From: Candidatus Aerophobota bacterium
Lineage (GTDB): Bacteria > Aerophobota > Aerophobia > Aerophobales > JAGGXI01
Reading direction: 5' to 3'
DNA: 43,083 bases
NCBI GenBank assembly: GCA_034659655.1
Contig: JAYEHT010000201.1
Coordinates: 1-43,083 of the forward strand
This document shows positions 5,905 to 29,425 of this stretch, one piece after another (within the stretch, counting starts at the first letter, position 1; each line of letters begins with the position of its first letter). The position numbers and the translations under genes are program-made. The notes beneath the pieces were generated by a model. The model was not told where the DNA came from. It worked only from the letters and a program-made list of their open reading frames with translations, and did no database searches.

Positions 5905-6489
5905 ATGGCTTTAATTCCTATGGTAATAGAAAAAACAGCGAGAGGGGAGAGAGCTTACGATATATATTCTCGCCTGCTTAAAGATAGAATAATTTTCATC
6001 GGTCAGCCCATAGACGATAATATAGCTAATACAGTAATTGCCCAAATGCTCTTTTTAGAAGTTGAAGACTCCAAAAAAGACATCTATCTTTACATTAACT
6101 CACCCGGAGGACTGGTTACTTCAGGGTTAGCTATATACGATACTATGCAATATGTGAGACCTGATGTTTCCACTATTTGTATGGGGCAAGCAGCCAGTGC
6201 CGCCGCCCTTCTCTTAGCTGCGGGAACTCCGGGGAAAAGATTTAGCTTGCCCAACACCAATATTTTAATTCATCAGCCAATGGGAGGAGCCAGAGGACAG
6301 GCTAGCGATGTAGGGATTCAAGCCCGTCAAATTCTAAAGATTAAAGGCAGATTAAATGATATTTTTGTGAAACATACCGGTCAAGCTAAGGAGAAGATTG
6401 AAAAAGATACTGATAGAGATTTTTATATGAGTGCCGAAGAAGCCAAAAAATACGGCGTTATCGATGAAGTAATTAAAACAAGGAAATAA
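5905..6489 (+). CDS. clpP: ATP-dependent Clp protease proteolytic subunit
   Basis: 194 aa with [20 protein letters not shown], active-site GQAAS, and IHQP. Confidence 0.95.
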
Positions 6490-6491
6490 CA

Positions 6492-8270
6492 TTGGTTGAA
6501 CAGGGGAAGATAATAAAAATCTCCGGTCCTTTAGTAGTAACTAAAGGTATCCCTCATGCTCGAATGTATGATGTAGTGAGGGTAGGAGAGAAAAGACTGA
6601 TTGGGGAAATCCTGGAGATAAGAGGCGAGAGAGCATCTATCCAGGTTTATGAGGATACAGGCGGCTTAAAACCTGGAGAACCTGTAGAATCTACCTATCA
6701 ACCCTTATCCGTAGAGTTAGCCCCTGGAATAATAGGAAATATATACGATGGAATACAGCGTCCTTTAGATCTCATCAAAGCAAAAACAGGAGATTTCATA
6801 ACCCGTGGGGTAGAGATGGAAGCGGTTGACAGAAAAAAAGAGTGGGAGTTTAAACCAACAGTAAAAATAGGAGAAAAGGTTTCTGGTGGAGATATATTAG
6901 GAGTGGTTCAGGAAACAGAGATAATAGAATATCGTCTTCTTGTTCCCCCGGGAATAGAAGGGAGAATAGAGAAAATCCATTCGGGTAGAGCAAAAGTGGA
7001 AGATGTAATTGCAGTAATTAAAACAGCAAAGGGGGGGAAGGAGGAAGTATCAATGCTCCAGAAATGGCCGGTAAGAAAGATGAGGCCCTATAAAAAACAG
7101 CTGGATCCTGCGCTGCCTCTTATTACCGGGCAAAGGGTTATTGATACATTTTTTCCTATAGCTAAAGGAGGCACAGCTTGCATTCCGGGACCATTTGGAA
7201 GTGGCAAAACTGTAATTCAGCATCAGCTATCCAAATGGGCGGATGCGGAAATTATTGTTTTCGTAGGTTGTGGAGAAAGAGGCAATGAGATGACCGATGT
7301 CCTGCGGGAATTTCCTGAATTAAAGGACCCTAAAACAGGTAAACCTTTAATGCAGAGAACTATTCTCATTGCTAACACATCTAATATGCCCGTAGCTGCT
7401 CGAGAAGCTTCTATTTATACAGGAATAACTTTAGCTGAGTATTATCGGGATATGGGTTATAATGTTGCTTTAATGGCTGATTCTACTTCTCGCTGGGCTG
7501 AAGCCTTAAGGGAGATGTCGGGAAGACTTGAAGAGATGCCGGGAGAAGAAGGATATCCAGCTTATCTTCCCTCAAGATTAGCAGAGTTTTATGAAAGAGC
7601 AGGAAGAATCATCTGTTTAGGGAAAGATGAGCGGGAGGCGAGTTTAAGCGCTATTGGGGCAGTATCTCCCCCTGGGGGAGACCTCTCTGAACCAGTAACT
7701 CAGGCTACCTTGCGGGTAGTTAGAGTATTTTGGGCTCTGATAGCTGAACTTGCCTATCAGCGCCACTTCCCAGCCATCCACTGGCTAAGAAGCTATTCTC
7801 TTTATGTAGATAATCTTAAGGAGTATTTTTCTAAAAGAATAGCCTCTGATTGGGTGAAACTGCGAGGTAAAGCTATAGCTCTTTTGCAAAAAGAGGATGA
7901 ATTAAAGGAGACTGTAAGACTTGTAGGATTAGACGCTTTATCCGATGAAGACAGAATAGCTATGGAAACTGCTCGTTCGGTAAGAGAAGATTTCCTGCAA
8001 CAGTTTGCCTTTCATGAAATAGATACCTACACTCCCATAAAGAAACAGTATCTAATGTTAAAATTAATTTTAAGTTATTACGATTTATCTCTTGAAGCTT
8101 TAAATAACGGAGCTCCTCTGGAAGAGCTCATATCTCTTCCAGTAAGGGAAGATATAGCAAAAGCAAAGTATACCCCCAATGAAGAGATTGAAAATGAGAT
8201 GAAAAAGATAAGTCAAAATTTAAAAGAAGAGATGAACAAATTGGGAAAAGAAGCGGAGGAGAGAATATGA
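6492..8270 (+). CDS. ntpA: V/A-type ATPase catalytic subunit A
   Basis: 592 aa. Walker A GPFGSGKT, and the non-homologous insert typical of A subunits. Begins at a TTG 2 nt after the clpP stop, with AAGGA about 9 nt upstream. Confidence 0.9.
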
Positions 8271-26220: not shown

Positions 26221-27287
26221 TTTATCTCCTTCTCCTTTGGATAAGAACCTAAAATTTTTAAGAAAAGGCACTGCTCCTCAAGCTCAGCTAAAGCTTTTTT
26301 TACTTTATCATTATCTTTATGACCAATAAAATCAACAAAAAAGACATACTCCCAGGGCTTTTTCTTTGTGGGTCGAGATTCAATTTTAGTTAAATTAAGT
26401 TGATACCTGCGAAAAGGAGCCAGCATATCATAAAGGGCACCCACTCTATCTTTAATGGAAAAAATGATAGAAGTCTTATCATCTCCGCTCTTTTCTGCAT
26501 AATCTCTTCCTATAACAAAAAAACGGGTATAATTACTTGCTCTATCTTCAATATGAGAAGCTAAGATCTTCAGATTATATAAAGAGGCGGCAGTATCTGA
26601 AGCAATGGCAGCGGAGAGGGACTGCTCGGAAGCTATTTGAGCAGCTTTAGCTGTGCTCTCCACTTCAATAAGGTTTACGGAAGGTAAATTTTCCTCTAAC
26701 CACCTATCGCATTGAGCCAGAGCCTGAGGGTGAGAATAGACCTTTTTCACTTTCTCTAACCTTCCTTTTCCTAAAAGGTAATGGGATATTTCCAGCATAA
26801 TCTCCGCATAAATCTTCAAATCCGAATCTAAAAACATATCCAGGGTATAAGTGACTACCCCTTCCATTGAATTCTCTACAGGCACAACCCCGAAATCAGC
26901 CTCCTTTTTTTCTACCTCACTAAAGACCCGGGTAATATTTTTCTGAGGAAGTAAATCTACTCCCTTACCAAAGCTCTTAATCGCCGCCAAATGAGTAAAG
27001 GTAGCTGAGGGACCTAAATAAGCAACTTTTAATTTCTTCTCCAGGGAGAGAGAGGTCTTCAGAATAAGATGGACAATCTCTGCTAAATCCTTATCGGGTA
27101 AAGGTCCCTTATTCTCCTTTAATAAATTATCTAAGATTTTTCTTTCTCTTGCTGGTGAATAATAACTTTTTCCGCTTTTTCTTTTTATTCTGGCAATTTC
27201 TAAAACTCTCTTTGCTCGTTCATTTAATATCTTCACCAACTTTAAATCGAGAGTATCGATCTCCTGCCGTAAATTTTTCAACCCCAT
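26217..27287 (-). CDS. pheA: bifunctional chorismate mutase / prephenate dehydratase
   Basis: 356 aa. N-terminal CM helix ([20 protein letters not shown]), a PDT domain, and a C-terminal ACT region with TKIESRP. Confidence 0.85.
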
Positions 27288-27288
27288 C

Positions 27289-27735
27289 TCAATCTCTCCT
27301 TTCTTTTAAAATCTCTACGGATGCTCTTAAAGCGAGAAGATAGCTTTGAGGGCCGAAACCGGTTATCTGTCCCACACACACTTCTGCTATTAAAGAATTT
27401 CTTCGAAAAGACTCTCTTTTATAAATATTGGAAAGGTGAACCTCCACCGCAGGAATCTCCACTCCTGCTATAGCATCCCTTATAGCAATGCTCGTATGAG
27501 TGTAAGCGGCAGCGTTAATTATTAATGCATCTGCCCAATCCCTATTCTTCCCGATAAAAGAGACAATTTCTCCTTCATTATTTGACTGCTTTATTTTTAC
27601 CTCGCAATTTAGCTCTTTTGCCTCTTTTTCAATCATCTGATTAATTTGATTAAGAGTAGCTTCTCCATAGATATCTTTCTCTCTTCTTCCAAGTAAGTTG
27701 AGATTTGGCCCGTGAATTATCAGGATATGTCTCAT
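27289..27735 (-). CDS. aroQ: type II 3-dehydroquinate dehydratase
   Basis: 148 aa with ILIIHGPNLNLLGRRE, QSNNEGEIV, INAAAYTHTSIAIRDA, and EVHLSN. Confidence 0.9.
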   Translation of the reverse strand: MRHILIIHGPNLNLLGRREKDIYGEATLNQINQMIEKEAKELNCEVKIKQSNNEGEIVSFIGKNRDWADALIINAAAYTHTSIAIRDAIAGVEIPAVEVHLSNIYKRESFRRNSLIAEVCVGQITGFGPQSYLLALRASVEILKERRD

Positions 27736-27790
27736 TTTTTATAATCCTTTTCTTTTTAACCTCCACTATTCAAACTAACCTTCTAATCTT

Positions 27791-27814
27791 GGGTAGGGGA
27801 GGCTTTAGCCTCCC
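27791..27814. repeat. REP-like unit 1 (GTAG + 7-bp hairpin)
   Basis: GGGTAGGGGAGGCTTTAGCCTCCC, with stem GGGAGGC/GCCTCCC and loop TTTA. Lies 2 nt beyond the RAYT stop codon. Confidence 0.8.
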
Positions 27815-27816
27815 TT

Positions 27817-28263
27817 TTATTCATAAAAAACAGCACCATACCTGTTCTTATAGTACATTGCACTTGAAAACTTATAATTTTCTGCTCTCTCAGCCAATCC
27901 TACTTTTACAGGGTTATAATGAATATAGTTGAATTTCTTTTTAAATTTATCCTCTGAAAAGAGCGTTAAATCGTAAAATCCTTTTTGCCAAAATTTTCCT
28001 TTATTGATAGCTTTTGAACTTCTTCCTTTTATCATCTGCATAATCTTTGAAATTCCATCCTTCACAGGTTTTAAAAGAATATGAAGATGATCTGGCATTA
28101 TTACATAAGCAATTAACACAAAATAACCTTCTCTTGTCAATTCTTTGATAGTTCCATCAATTAATTTCATCTCTGATCTATTAAAGGTACGACCAATATT
28201 AGCTATTCGGGTACTCACAAAATAAATCATTCCATCAATTTCGAAATGCGGTGGCTGAGCCAT
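27817..28263 (-). CDS. REP-associated tyrosine transposase (RAYT) / IS200-like Y1 HUH transposase
   Basis: 148 aa. HUH motif in IMPDHLHILL, catalytic-Tyr region NYIHYNPVKVGLAERAENYKFSS. Flanked by inverted GTAG-hairpin repeats. Confidence 0.8.
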   Translation of the reverse strand: MAQPPHFEIDGMIYFVSTRIANIGRTFNRSEMKLIDGTIKELTREGYFVLIAYVIMPDHLHILLKPVKDGISKIMQMIKGRSSKAINKGKFWQKGFYDLTLFSEDKFKKKFNYIHYNPVKVGLAERAENYKFSSAMYYKNRYGAVFYE

Positions 28264-28279
28264 AGCCCTTTCTCCAGAA

Positions 28280-28305
28280 GAGGGCGACTAAAGTCGCCCC
28301 TACCC
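28280..28305. repeat. REP-like unit 2 (inverted orientation, compensated stem)
   Basis: The reverse complement reads GGGTAGGGGCGACTTTAGTCGCCCTC. Flank, GTAG and TTTA loop match unit 1. The stem core CGAC/GTCG replaces AGGC/GCCT. Confidence 0.8.
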
Positions 28306-28330
28306 CCCTACGAAGTTGTCCTTATTTCTT

Positions 28331-28353
28331 GGTAGAGGAGGCTTTAGCCTCCC
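28331..28353. repeat. REP-like unit 3 (same orientation as unit 1)
   Basis: GGTAGAGGAGGCTTTAGCCTCCC, directly after the aroB stop codon. With its flanks (28328-28356) it forms a ~30-nt direct repeat with 27788-27817. Confidence 0.8.
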
Positions 28354-28354
28354 T

Positions 28355-29425
28355 TTAAAGAACGCTCTTTATTATACGAGGAGGAACATCTCCTGTAAGA
28401 AATACCTCTCCTATATCCTTAGGCAATACAAAATGAATTCTTTCTCCCTTCCTTTTCTTATCTCTATAAAGAGCTCTCCAGAGTCTATTTTTATCTAATC
28501 CTCTTACTTCTGTAGGCAAACCAAAATCTTTTAAAAGCTTCTTCAGGCGAAAAAGCTTATCCTGAGAAAAAATTCCCATCTTTACAGCAATCTTCCCCGC
28601 AGCTACCATTCCTACAGATACAGCTTCACCATGGGTATACCTCTTATATTCGGTAACTACCTCTATAGCGTGCCCTATGGTATGCCCAAAATTTAAAAAT
28701 TCCCTTCCCTTTCTCTCTTCCCTCTCATCTTTTTCTACTATACGAGCTTTATTCCTCGCCGCCCTGGTTATTATAAACTGAAGAGAGTCCTCATCTAATC
28801 TCTTTATGCAGGATAAATTTTTCTCTAAATAAAGAAAAAGCTCTTTATCCTTTATTATCCCATATTTTACTACCTCAGCTAACCCTCCTTTAACTTCTCG
28901 CAAGGGGAGCGTCTTTAAAACCTTCTGATTCATATAGACAAACATCGGTTGATAAAAAGAGCCTACTAAATTTTTTCCTTCAGGCAGATTTACTGCTGTT
29001 TTCCCCCCTATGCTGGCATCAACCTGAGCAAGAAGAGTGGTGGGAAAAGAGATAAAATTTATCCCCCTCAGGTAAGTAGAAGCTACAAATCCTGCTAAAT
29101 CCCCTATAACTCCTCCTCCGAGAGCAAGTATAGTAGAATAGCGATCTAAGTTATGTTGAATACACCAATTATACAATTTTAACGCCTGAGATAATGATTT
29201 ATATCTTTCCCCCTGGGGAACCTTAGCTAAAAAGACATTAAAACCAGAACTCTCAAGACTATTTTTTACTTTCTCTCCGTATAATCCATAAACCTTTCCA
29301 TTGCTGACAATTAAAACCCTTTCTCCTCTATTAAAATCGGAAGCTATTTTTCCTATATTATCTATCTTCCCCCCTATATATACCGGATAACTCCGTTTAT
29401 CAAGGTTAACGGTAATTATATTCAT
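28355..29425 (-). CDS. aroB: 3-dehydroquinate synthase
   Basis: 356 aa with ALGGGVIGDLAGFVASTYLRGI, DASIGGKTAVN, and NFGHTIGHAIE. Confidence 0.9.
   Translation of the reverse strand: MNIITVNLDKRSYPVYIGGKIDNIGKIASDFNRGERVLIVSNGKVYGLYGEKVKNSLESSGFNVFLAKVPQGERYKSLSQALKLYNWCIQHNLDRYSTILALGGGVIGDLAGFVASTYLRGINFISFPTTLLAQVDASIGGKTAVNLPEGKNLVGSFYQPMFVYMNQKVLKTLPLREVKGGLAEVVKYGIIKDKELFLYLEKNLSCIKRLDEDSLQFIITRAARNKARIVEKDEREERKGREFLNFGHTIGHAIEVVTEYKRYTHGEAVSVGMVAAGKIAVKMGIFSQDKLFRLKKLLKDFGLPTEVRGLDKNRLWRALYRDKKRKGERIHFVLPKDIGEVFLTGDVPPRIIKSVL

What the first reader, a model, noticed from the sequence alone, without database searches (positions are those of the whole stretch)
27788..28357. RAYT transposase with GTAG-hairpin REP units inserted inside the shikimate operon
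**What is there.** A 148-aa HUH/Y1 protein lies between aroB and aroQ, on the same strand as the operon. It carries PDHLHIL and YIHYNPVKVGLAE.

**REP units.** Three units surround it, each consisting of GGTAG, a 7-bp G+C hairpin and a TTTA loop:
- Unit 1 (27791-27814) and unit 3 (28331-28353) are direct copies.
- Unit 2 (28280-28305) is inverted.
- Unit 2 has two stem base pairs exchanged on both arms: AGGC/GCCT becomes CGAC/GTCG. The flank, GTAG and loop are unchanged.

**Why this supports REP/RAYT.** A conserved GTAG 5' of the hairpin is the feature recognised by the E. coli REP-associated transposase. Here it recurs in a very distant, AT-rich genome.

**Layout.** The ~30-nt direct repeat (27788-27817 and 28328-28356) brackets the whole cassette. 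This looks like the pre-existing REP that followed the aroB stop, duplicated by or targeted for insertion.

**Possible consequence.** The hairpins sit 1-2 nt after the aroB and RAYT stop codons. They could partition mRNA stability within the aroE-aroC-aroK-aroB / aroQ-pheA-aroF-aroA transcript.
Basis: partly seen in the sequence, partly recalled or inferred. Interest (0 to 1): 0.62.

Follow-up and report, generated by a model that had tools for sequence, protein, structure and literature searches.

The report
REPtron embedded in shikimate operon
A small hairpin-cutting enzyme gene (a RAYT) and the GTAG-tagged DNA hairpins it recognises sit between two shikimate-pathway genes of an uncultured Aerophobetes bacterium; this is a real example of a known system, and its relatives sit in different operons in related bacteria, so the cassette appears to have moved as a unit.

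Summary
A 148-aa HUH/Y1 protein (27817-28263, minus strand) lies between aroB and aroQ and passes NCBI's curated RAYT model (105.5 bits, cut-off 80) but not the IS200 model. It is bracketed by inverted GTAG-hairpin REPs, with a third REP 1 nt after the aroB stop.

The gene is single-copy. The same REP occurs at four other loci in this fragmented MAG, 52 times in a same-genus genome, 23 and 59 times in another family of the order, and 20 times in an anammox planctomycete. The reversed control pattern gives 0 everywhere.

The "compensated" unit 2 is a fixed dimorphism, not a random variant. In eight relatives read (54-81% identity, three phyla) GGGCGAC always precedes the ATG and GGGAGGC always follows the stop.

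The sister species has only a solo REP at aroB|aroQ. The closest RAYTs (81%, 76%) sit in other operons, always co-oriented with the downstream gene, and are more similar than housekeeping proteins.

Verdict: a genuine REPtron and a new member of a known kind. It adds evidence for unit mobility, which the literature says is lacking. Effects on mRNA are untested; a metatranscriptome shows that the gene and the junction occur in RNA.

The parts
28355..29425 (-). aroB (3-dehydroquinate synthase), the gene upstream of the cassette; its stop codon is at 28355-28357
   Evidence: ORF list. Pfam DHQ_synthase is recorded on the orthologous genes.
28331..28353 (+). REP unit 3 (hpA type, GGTAG-A-GGAGGC-TTTA-GCCTCC). 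On the operon mRNA it reads as hairpin-CUACC, starting 1 nt after the aroB stop. It is orthologous to the solo REP of the sister species.
   Evidence: RNA fold -12.2 kcal/mol.
28304..28330 (.). Spacer between REP3 and REP2. It contains a partial duplicate of the GTAGGGG foot. REP3, this spacer and REP2 together form an iREP-linker-REP junction of the kind repeated beside RAYT homologues.
   Evidence: Sequence. The same junction units appear.
28280..28305 (-). REP unit 2 (hpB type, GGGTAG-GGGCGAC-TTTA-GTCGCCC). This is the 5' end of the cassette, 18 nt upstream of the RAYT start codon and ahead of a GGAGAAAGGG ribosome-binding stretch.
   Evidence: The 5' position of hpB is conserved in 8 of 8 homologues read. 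ssDNA fold -8.2 kcal/mol, z -3.7.
27817..28263 (-). RAYT / TnpA-REP gene, 148 aa, with HUH at H59-L60-H61 and predicted catalytic Y113
   Evidence: NF047646 105.5 bits (cut-off 80) and Pfam Y1_Tnp 41 bits. 4ER8 E = 3.7e-9, with Y113 aligned to the E. coli catalytic Y115. H59, H61 and Y113 are invariant in 10 clade members. Single copy in the genome.
27791..27814 (+). REP unit 1 (hpA type, GGGTAG-GGGAGGC-TTTA-GCCTCCC). This is the 3' end of the cassette; on the mRNA the hairpin starts 2 nt after the RAYT stop.
   Evidence: The 3' position of hpA is conserved in homologues. RNA fold -14.2 kcal/mol, z -3.7.
27289..27735 (-). aroQ (type II 3-dehydroquinate dehydratase), the gene downstream of the cassette; it starts 57 nt after REP1
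   Evidence: It is 90% identical to the same-genus orthologue.

Best explanation
**What it is.** This is a REPtron: a single-copy REP-associated tyrosine transposase gene (RAYT, also called TnpA-REP) bracketed by its cognate REP hairpins. It lies in the aroB-aroQ gap of the shikimate operon of a Candidatus Aerophobetes MAG from a brine metagenome.

**Shown**
- The protein has the HUH/Y1 catalytic set and passes the curated RAYT model.
- In coding orientation the cassette reads GGGTAG-hpB(GGGCGAC), ribosome-binding site, RAYT, stop, hpA'(GGGAGGC)-CTACCC.
- The same two hairpins occur without the gene elsewhere in this genome, singly and as one inverted doublet (a REPIN). They are far more numerous in related genomes.
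- The cassette has no terminator-like hairpin on the sense strand.
- Its sequence is contiguous with aroB in metatranscriptome contigs.

**Inferred, by analogy with E. coli, Stenotrophomonas and Marinomonas TnpA-REP**
- The enzyme binds the folded single-stranded REP (GTAG foot, 7-bp stem and TTTA loop), cuts beside it through a 5'-phosphotyrosine link at Y113, and rejoins strands. This would spread REP/REPIN copies in trans.
- The gene is translated from the operon read-through transcript.

**History**
- The cassette entered the operon as a unit before or during diversification of this genus.
- The closest RAYTs (81% and 76% identity) lie in other operons of other families of the same order. 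Clean empty sites exist in their relatives.
- RAYT identity exceeds that of housekeeping proteins between the same hosts.
- For the local pair of species, I slightly favour (about 60:40) that the genus ancestor carried the cassette here. The sister species would then have deleted it by recombination between the direct REP copies, leaving a solo REP. The alternative is a recent insertion at a resident REP.
For: **Identity of the protein**
- NF047646 105.5 bits (cut-off 80), IS200 model 28.3 bits (cut-off 55), Pfam Y1_Tnp.
- 4ER8 is the best PDB match, with the HUH motifs and Y113/Y115 aligned. Y115F is the published catalytic mutant.
- H59, H61 and Y113 are invariant in the clade.

**REPs**
- Coordinates and repeats.
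- This genome holds 9 pattern hits, which are 8 units at 5 loci after merging a locus assembled twice. They include the doublet at C105:11822-11897.
- Counts elsewhere: 52 (same genus), 23 and 59 (another family), 20 (an anammox MAG). The reversed control gives 0.

**Copy number.** One copy of this RAYT in the genome.

**Conserved hpB-5' / hpA'-3' architecture.** Seen in homologues at 54-81% identity from Aerophobetes, Deltaproteobacteria MAGs and Candidatus Anammoxibacter.

**Different sites**
- Radical-SAM|hisD, ARMT1-like|argF, AMP-binding|livH-like, FlpD|HdrA-like and others.
- The RAYT is co-oriented with the downstream gene at 9 of 9 distinct sites.

**Empty sites**
- The sister species has aroB, a solo REP, then aroQ, in five independent assemblies.
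- G008 has a 31-nt ARMT1|argF gap with no REP, and no REP anywhere in its genome.

**RAYT versus housekeeping identity**

| Host pair | RAYT | Housekeeping proteins |
|---|---|---|
| Window versus L048 host | 81% | GatB 71%, ArgF 67% |
| Window versus L047 host | 76% | DnaJ 63%, radical-SAM 53% |

**RNA.** Contigs 27983-28309 (99.4% identical) and 28280-28626 in metatranscriptome run X4.
Against: - No biochemical activity is shown. Cleavage sites and the active strand are unknown.
- This genome has few REPs (8 units), while relatives with many REPs (G001, G005, G010) show no orthologous RAYT in their assemblies. The RAYT-to-REP dependence is therefore not demonstrated here. MAG incompleteness and contig breaks at REPs could explain both facts.
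- Higher RAYT identity than housekeeping identity could reflect slow RAYT evolution rather than transfer. Bertels et al. 2017 report slow evolution for some RAYT groups.
- Gain versus loss at aroB|aroQ cannot be resolved with two species.
- RNA coverage comes from an amplified, very uneven metatranscriptome of a related strain. DNA carry-over cannot be excluded.
Confidence: 0.85

Rival explanations
1. Recent gain. The aroB stop was already followed by an orphan REP, as in the sister species. A REP-bearing RAYT cassette, for instance a circular or single-stranded intermediate carrying hpA'-spacer-hpB-RAYT, integrated at that REP by RAYT-catalysed strand transfer or by recombination. That would produce the direct REP1/REP3 repeat.
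For: - The sister species carries exactly one hpA REP, 1 nt after the aroB stop, in five assemblies.
- REP3-spacer-REP2-RAYT-REP1 is the structure expected from integrating a circle at a REP.
- Other lineages show the cassette in fresh sites with clean empty sites in relatives.
- RAYT identity is higher than housekeeping identity.
Against: - The sister species has at least 40 REPIN-like copies and 52 REPs, so its lineage must once have had a cognate RAYT.
- A single deletion between REP1 and REP3 explains the solo REP with one event. The gain model needs a relocation plus a loss.
- The two models predict identical junction sequences.
- No empty-site or circle-specific reads were found in the DNA runs.
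Confidence: 0.4
2. An ordinary autonomous IS200/IS605-family insertion sequence has landed in the operon. The hairpins would simply be its left and right ends.
For: - Pfam Y1_Tnp match.
- The gene is bordered by two different subterminal hairpins, as in IS608.
- Orthologues lie at different sites in relatives.
Against: - Only one copy in the genome.
- IS200 model 28.3 bits, below the cut-off of 55, while the RAYT model is above its cut-off.
- The hairpins occur many times without the gene, singly and as gene-less doublets. There are 52 to 59 of them in genomes that lack the gene.
- A GTAG foot is typical of REPs.
Confidence: 0.05
3. The hairpins are primarily operon RNA elements, acting as stabilisers, processing barriers or translation dampers at the aroB stop, and selected for shikimate-operon regulation. 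The RAYT would be incidental.
For: - The hairpins start 1-2 nt after stop codons and are stable as RNA, at -12 to -15 kcal/mol.
- The REP at the aroB stop is retained in the sister species without the RAYT.
- RNA contigs show apparently about 10-fold higher depth over RAYT than over aroB.
- From memory, not checked here: E. coli REPs stabilise upstream mRNA (Newbury 1987), and a REP within 15 nt of a stop codon reduces translation via ribosome stalling (Liang, Rudd and Deutscher 2015).
Against: - The same hairpins flank RAYT orthologues in unrelated operons and occur in either orientation relative to transcription. They therefore belong to the RAYT system, not to shikimate regulation.
- aroB-aroQ junctions of 18 other genomes of the order have no such hairpin.
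- RNA depth in run X4 is extremely uneven across the whole operon.
Confidence: 0.15

Closest known systems
E. coli K-12 REPtron: TnpA-REP (RayT/YafM, PDB 4ER8) with Y/Z2 REPs and BIMEs (Nunvar 2010; Ton-Hoang 2012; Messing 2012; Corneloup 2021, PMC8266576)
   Same: - HUH/Y1 fold; it is the best PDB match (E = 3.7e-9), with HUH and the catalytic Tyr aligned.
- Single-copy gene bracketed by inverted REPs of two sequence types.
- GTAG foot 5' of the hairpin.
- REP/iREP pairs with linkers repeated in tandem beside the gene.
- REPs dispersed genome-wide.
   Different: - Here the REPs are short, perfect 7-bp palindromes with a 4-nt loop and no bulge. E. coli REPs are long and bulged.
- The protein is 148 aa and lacks the roughly 20-residue C-terminal tail.
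- The R104 equivalent is not conserved, and the E100 equivalent is Asp.
- The gene sits inside an operon, co-oriented with it.
- REP copy number is low in this genome.
Group 3 / subclass 2.5 REPtrons of Pseudomonas, Stenotrophomonas and Marinomonas, with REPINs (Bertels and Rainey 2011; Bertels 2017, PMC5581495; Quentin 2018, PMC6006769)
   Same: - Short, perfectly palindromic REPs preceded by GTAG.
- Inverted doublets (REPINs), such as C105:11822-11897.
- Asp at the E100-equivalent position.
- One RAYT per REP family, with several families in one genome.
   Different: - The host is an uncultured candidate phylum, not Proteobacteria.
- The protein lacks the N-terminal extension described for group 3.
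- Subclass membership was not tested, because no reference sequences were on hand.
- REP sequence is nearly invariant across phyla, whereas REPs are usually described as species-specific.
- Orthologues are not syntenic between related families.
IS200/IS605-family insertion sequences (IS608, ISDra2)
   Same: - Y1 HUH transposase gene bordered by two different subterminal hairpins, each with a tetranucleotide 5' 'guide' position.
- Strand-specific single-strand DNA chemistry.
- Uniform orientation relative to neighbouring genes fits the lagging-strand-template bias known for this family (Ton-Hoang 2010, from memory).
   Different: - Single copy.
- Fails the IS200 model cut-off.
- The ends are dispersed on their own in large excess over the gene.
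- No tnpB.

Membership tests
RAYT / TnpA-REP (REPtron) | HUH metal-binding motif plus a single catalytic tyrosine (Y1) in the IS200-like fold | tested here: met
   - H59-L60-H61 and Y113 are present.
- Y113 aligns with E. coli Y115 in 4ER8. Y115F is the catalytic mutant.
- These residues are invariant in 10 clade members.
RAYT / TnpA-REP (REPtron) | Scores above the curated cut-off of the RAYT model and below that of the IS200 model | tested here: met
   NF047646 105.5 bits against a cut-off of 80. NF033573 28.3 bits against a cut-off of 55. The same holds for six homologues.
RAYT / TnpA-REP (REPtron) | Gene immediately flanked by REP hairpins in inverted orientation, each with a GTAG (or GT[AG]G) foot | tested here: met
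   REP2 (28282-28303, -) and REP1 (27793-27814, +) form the inverted pair, and REP3 is an extra unit.
RAYT / TnpA-REP (REPtron) | The same REPs dispersed elsewhere in the genome without the gene, in excess of chance | tested here: met
   - Five further units at four loci in this 86%-complete MAG.
- 52, 23 and 59 units in relatives.
- The reversed control pattern gives 0.
- The count here is modest and is an underestimate, because contigs end at REPINs.
RAYT / TnpA-REP (REPtron) | Single copy per genome for a given REP family | tested here: met
   tblastn and the family search find one copy. The other Y1 genes are no more than 28% identical and have their own repeats.
RAYT / TnpA-REP (REPtron) | Housekeeping-like, vertically inherited and immobile gene ('domesticated'; 'no evidence of tnpAREP mobility', PMC8266576) | tested here: not met
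   - Orthologues at 76-81% identity lie at different loci in other families of the order, with empty sites in close relatives.
- RAYT identity exceeds housekeeping identity.
- This is a behavioural generalisation about the family, not a structural criterion for membership.
RAYT / TnpA-REP (REPtron) | Strand-specific binding, cleavage and strand transfer of single-stranded cognate REP in vitro | not testable with these tools
   This needs purified protein and oligonucleotide substrates, for example the CST assay of Corneloup 2021.
IS200/IS605 autonomous insertion sequence | Several near-identical copies of gene plus ends per genome, and a match to the IS200 transposase model | tested here: not met
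   One copy only. NF033573 is below its cut-off.
Rho-independent terminator | G+C-rich hairpin followed by a U-tract on the transcribed strand | tested here: not met
   The only terminator-like site is on the + strand, which is antisense to the operon. On the mRNA the hairpins are followed by CUACCC, not by U runs.

The most novel reading that the evidence does not exclude
This RAYT clade may not be an immobile, domesticated gene. It may be a still-mobile, promoter-less cassette of about 0.5 kb (GGGTAG-hpB, RAYT, hpA'-CTACCC) that travels between genomes and across phyla (Aerophobetes, Desulfobacterota-type MAGs, anammox Planctomycetota). Under this reading:
- It integrates as a unit into short intergenic gaps, always co-oriented with the downstream gene.
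- It lives off the host operon's transcript.
- It can be lost again by REP-REP recombination that leaves a solo REP, much like a solo LTR.
- Its two end hairpins stay almost invariant while the protein diverges to about 55% identity.
Probability: 0.45. Interest if true: 0.6.

Novelty: new member of a known kind. Interest (0 to 1): 0.38.

Why it matters
**Taxonomic reach.** REP/RAYT systems have been studied almost only in Proteobacteria. This case places an intact REPtron in the candidate phylum Aerophobetes. One REP sequence pair is shared by RAYTs in at least three phyla.

[quoted passage not shown] This clade offers several comparisons that make the question directly testable:
- occupied, empty and solo-REP sites;
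- non-syntenic orthologues;
- RAYT identity higher than housekeeping identity.

**A compact test system.** The cassette is small, with a 148-aa enzyme and two 22-nt substrates that differ by two base pairs.

**Practical consequences.** REPINs break MAG assemblies at these repeats. A REP can rewrite the 3' end of a neighbouring gene.

Tried and rejected
- **Excision or empty-site forms in the source metagenome.** The only 'skip' joints have 24-25-nt sides and extra letters between them. They are other REP doublets, not excision products. A circle junction could not be told apart anyway, because REP3-spacer-REP2 already mimics it.
- **Replication direction from GC skew.** The skew simply follows gene orientation, so it cannot test the lagging-strand idea.
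- **Rfam scan of 27000-29000.** Only sub-threshold chance hits.
- **Promoter and terminator scan.** Counts equal the shuffled expectation. The -35/-10-like site at 28399-28371 (-) is not evidence of a RAYT promoter.
- **Host names from cluster look-up.** Almost no names were returned. Taxonomy was settled instead through AroC homologues named Candidatus Aerophobetes.
- **A third lineage for the aroB|aroQ junction.**
  - P0121 (AroC 91% identical) sits on a contig that ends in aroK.
  - The four 87% contigs all belong to the sister species.
- **P0004 context.** Not informative about the sister species' RAYT.
- **RAYT group or subclass (Bertels groups, Quentin subclasses).** Not assigned, because no reference sequences were available. 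Only residue-level hints can be given.
- **Quantitative use of RNA depth.** Rejected, because coverage in X4 swings from 0 to about 6000 across the operon.
Full report
**1. What is in the sequence**

The region lies in a co-directional, minus-strand operon: aroE, aroC, aroK, aroB, a 148-aa ORF, aroQ, pheA, a DAHP synthase gene and aroA.

The 148-aa ORF (27817-28263) carries PDHLHIL and NYIHYNPVKVGL.

| Unit | Coordinates, strand | Sequence |
|---|---|---|
| REP1 | 27793-27814 (+) | GTAG GGGAGGC TTTA GCCTCCC |
| REP2 | 28282-28303 (-) | GTAG GGGCGAC TTTA GTCGCCC |
| REP3 | 28332-28353 (+) | GTAG A GGAGGC TTTA GCCTCC |

- REP3 has a 6-bp stem; its seventh pair is A.C.
- The repeat finder reports REP1 and REP3 as a 26-nt direct repeat at 96% identity. 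It reports REP1 and REP2 as arms of a 37-nt inverted repeat.
- On the mRNA strand the hairpins begin 1 nt after the aroB stop and 2 nt after the ORF's stop (read).

**2. The protein is a RAYT**

- Pfam gives Y1_Tnp at 41 bits.
- NCBIfam gives REP_Tyr_transpos (NF047646) at 105.5 bits against a cut-off of 80. The IS200 model reaches only 28.3 bits against a cut-off of 55.
- The best solved structure by sequence is E. coli TnpA-REP, 4ER8 (E = 3.7e-9). It aligns over residues 6-134, with HUH on HUH and Y113 on Y115.
- Y115F is the catalytic mutant used by Corneloup et al..
- H59, H61, W92, Y113 and N117 are invariant in ten clade members.
- The equivalent of E. coli E100 is Asp, as reported for subclasses 2.5 and 2.7. 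The equivalent of R104 is not conserved.
- I could not assign a Bertels group or a Quentin subclass.

**3. The hairpins are a dispersed REP family**

The host is a 315-contig, 1.99-Mb MAG with 38.6% G+C, estimated 86% complete.

- The pattern GTAGRGGNGNCTTTAGNCNCC occurs nine times in this genome. Two hits are one locus assembled twice, so there are eight units at five loci.
- One locus, C105:11822-11897, is an inverted doublet: GGGTAG-hpA, 30 nt, hpB'-CTACCC. It is the RAYT cassette without the gene, in other words a REPIN.
- This RAYT is single-copy.

Counts across 60 other genomes, plus one anammox MAG searched separately:

| Genome | REP units |
|---|---|
| Same-genus genome G001 | 52 |
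| G005 (another family of the order) | 23 |
| G010 (another family of the order) | 59 |
| Three other genomes | 1 each |
| The rest | 0 |
| Candidatus Anammoxibacter MAG (RAYT 54% identical) | 20 |
| Reversed control pattern, all 61 genomes | 0 |

- Three fully compensated stem variants (AGGC, AGAC, CGAC) recur in all these genomes.
- About 94% of hits are Watson-Crick paired at the two free positions, although the pattern does not demand it.
- As ssDNA the hairpins fold at -6 to -8 kcal/mol. As RNA they fold at -12 to -15 kcal/mol.

**4. Unit 2 is the cassette's other end, not a random variant**

I read the flanks of RAYT homologues at 81, 76, 61, 58, 57, 55 and 54% identity. They come from other Aerophobetes, Deltaproteobacteria-type MAGs and an anammox planctomycete.

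- In every case GGGTAG-GGGCGAC-TTTA-GTCGCCC lies 15-25 nt upstream of the ATG.
- In every case GGGAGGC-TAAA-GCCTCCC-CTACCC follows the stop, by 0-3 nt in all but the anammox locus, where it lies about 70 nt downstream.
- Minor deviations are GTAC for GTAG in two loci and a degenerate 5' hairpin in the anammox locus.
- Extra hpA'-linker-hpB junction units are repeated beside the gene, like BIMEs. The window's REP3-spacer-REP2 is one such unit.

The end hairpins are almost frozen while the protein has diverged to about 55% identity.

**5. Comparison of the junction**

- AroC homologues name the lineage Candidatus Aerophobetes. This agrees with an earlier unchecked note.
- In the same-genus species, aroB is followed 1 nt after its stop by a single hpA REP. 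About 80 nt further on aroQ begins, with no RAYT. This species comprises G001 plus four independent metagenome contigs, with AroC 87% and AroQ 90% identical to the window.
- Eighteen other genomes of the order have no such REP near aroQ.
- The occupied form is shared by a related strain in a different study. There, metatranscriptome contigs cover 27983-28309 and 28280-28626.

The occupied and solo-REP forms differ by exactly one REP plus the cassette. Integration at a resident REP and deletion by REP1 x REP3 recombination predict identical sequences.

The sister species carries at least 40 REPIN-like copies, so it must once have had a cognate RAYT. One deletion is therefore more parsimonious than a relocation plus a loss. 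I weight loss against gain at about 60:40.

**6. Evidence that the cassette moves as a unit**

The two closest RAYTs lie elsewhere:
- The 81% homologue lies between an ARMT1-like gene and argF, on three JGI contigs.
- The 76% homologue lies between a radical-SAM gene and hisD, in an NCBI MAG.

Their hosts belong to other families of the same order. ArgF is 87% identical to G008, and HisD is 84% identical to G003. G008 and G003 have no REP of this family and no orthologous RAYT. In G008 the ARMT1|argF gap is 31 nt and clean.

| Host pair | RAYT identity | Housekeeping identity |
|---|---|---|
| Window versus 81% host | 81% | GatB 71%, ArgF 67% |
| Window versus 76% host | 76% | DnaJ 63%, radical-SAM 53% |

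- More distant members sit in a liv-type transporter operon, between FlpD and an HdrA-like gene, and at other sites.
- At nine distinct sites the RAYT is always co-oriented with the downstream gene. A simple binomial gives about 0.002, assuming the sites are independent.
- Within lineages the position is stable. L051 and L052 share a site, L139-L142 share a site, and ten contigs carrying P0014 share a site.

This pattern fits rare transfer followed by vertical descent. The literature read here says there is no evidence for tnpA-REP mobility, while conceding horizontal transfer over long times.

**7. Expression and effect on the operon**

- The sense strand has no terminator-like site, and no Rfam family matches.
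- The promoter-like matches do not exceed the shuffled expectation.
- hpB lies just upstream of a GGAGAAAGGG ribosome-binding stretch.
- RNA-derived contigs link RAYT, REP2, REP3 and the aroB 3' end. They show apparently higher depth over RAYT (about 4,700) than over aroB (about 425).
- Depth across the whole operon swings between 0 and about 6,000 in this amplified library. I therefore use the data only as evidence of transcription and contiguity.
- The proposal that the hairpins partition mRNA stability, or damp aroB translation, remains plausible by analogy with E. coli REPs (from memory). It is untested.

**8. Verdict**

It is a REPtron, which is a known kind of system. I score it as a new member of that kind, of moderate interest.

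Four features go beyond the textbook picture:
- a conserved two-hairpin end dimorphism shared across phyla;
- an operon-embedded, co-oriented lifestyle;
- occupied, solo-REP and clean empty sites that argue for gain and loss of the whole cassette;

Noticed in passing
G000 contig C296:2641-3351 (locus L003:1302-2012): A second RAYT-like gene of 138 aa (NF047646 48.7 bits, below the cut-off) sits between NuoH-like and NuoB-like genes and is co-oriented with them. It is bracketed by its own REP family, TGTAGCG-GTGCGA-TTTA-TCGCAC, together with a compensated variant GTGGCA/TGCCAC.
   Followed up: partly
G000 contig C145:290-1241 (locus L002); also C131, C251, C308 and C170:6385-6460: A 292-aa Y1 protein with a C-terminal HTH (NF047646 88 bits) is bracketed by 19-nt inverted repeats, TTAGGGGTCAGGTCTTGCA. 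Nine such ends occur in the genome, including gene-less pairs. This looks like a TIRYT (Quentin subclass 2.1) with MITE-like derivatives.
   Followed up: partly
G000 contigs C36, C103, C105:6445-6472, C146, C155, C168, C296:7566-7593, C307, C312: A 'double-foot' palindrome, GTAGGGAACGGTCGCGACCGTTCCCTAC, has a GTAG foot on both strands and occurs at nine loci. No associated RAYT was identified.
   Followed up: no
G000 contig C105:11780-11975; G001, about 43 matches; ends of G000 contigs C248 and C216: The REPIN doublet is part of a composite element of about 190 nt, with at least 40 matches (79-95% identity) in the same-genus genome. The orthologous oppD|oppF-like gap of G001 lacks it and holds a different hairpin repeat. 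Two G000 contigs end at this element, so REP counts in this MAG are underestimates.
   Followed up: partly
L047:5885-5965 and 6478-6600: A 19-nt unit, CTCTTATTCTCTTGGGTAG, is tandemly repeated about 4 and about 6 times immediately 5' of the hpB REPs on both sides of the RAYT. The unit comprises the 5' flank plus the GGGTAG foot. This may be a trace of repeated cleavage and rejoining at the foot.
   Followed up: no
L048:2240-2275 and L049:3995-4030, compared with L135:2430-2470: The hpA REP overlaps the 3' end of the upstream ARMT1-like gene. Its last codons and its TGA stop, which lies in the hairpin loop, are supplied by the REP and replace the C-terminus seen in the REP-free relative.
   Followed up: partly
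L048:2310-2345, L048:2975-3100 and L049:4065-4115: An hpB variant carries a 25-nt insertion inside its 5' arm. The number of junction units downstream of the RAYT differs between samples that encode the identical RAYT protein, so the array structure is polymorphic.
   Followed up: no
G001, G005, G010 (whole genomes): Relatives with 52, 23 and 59 copies of this REP family show no orthologous RAYT in their assemblies. The best hit is 33% identical, or there is none. Either these are orphan REP populations or the RAYT loci were lost from the bins.
   Followed up: partly
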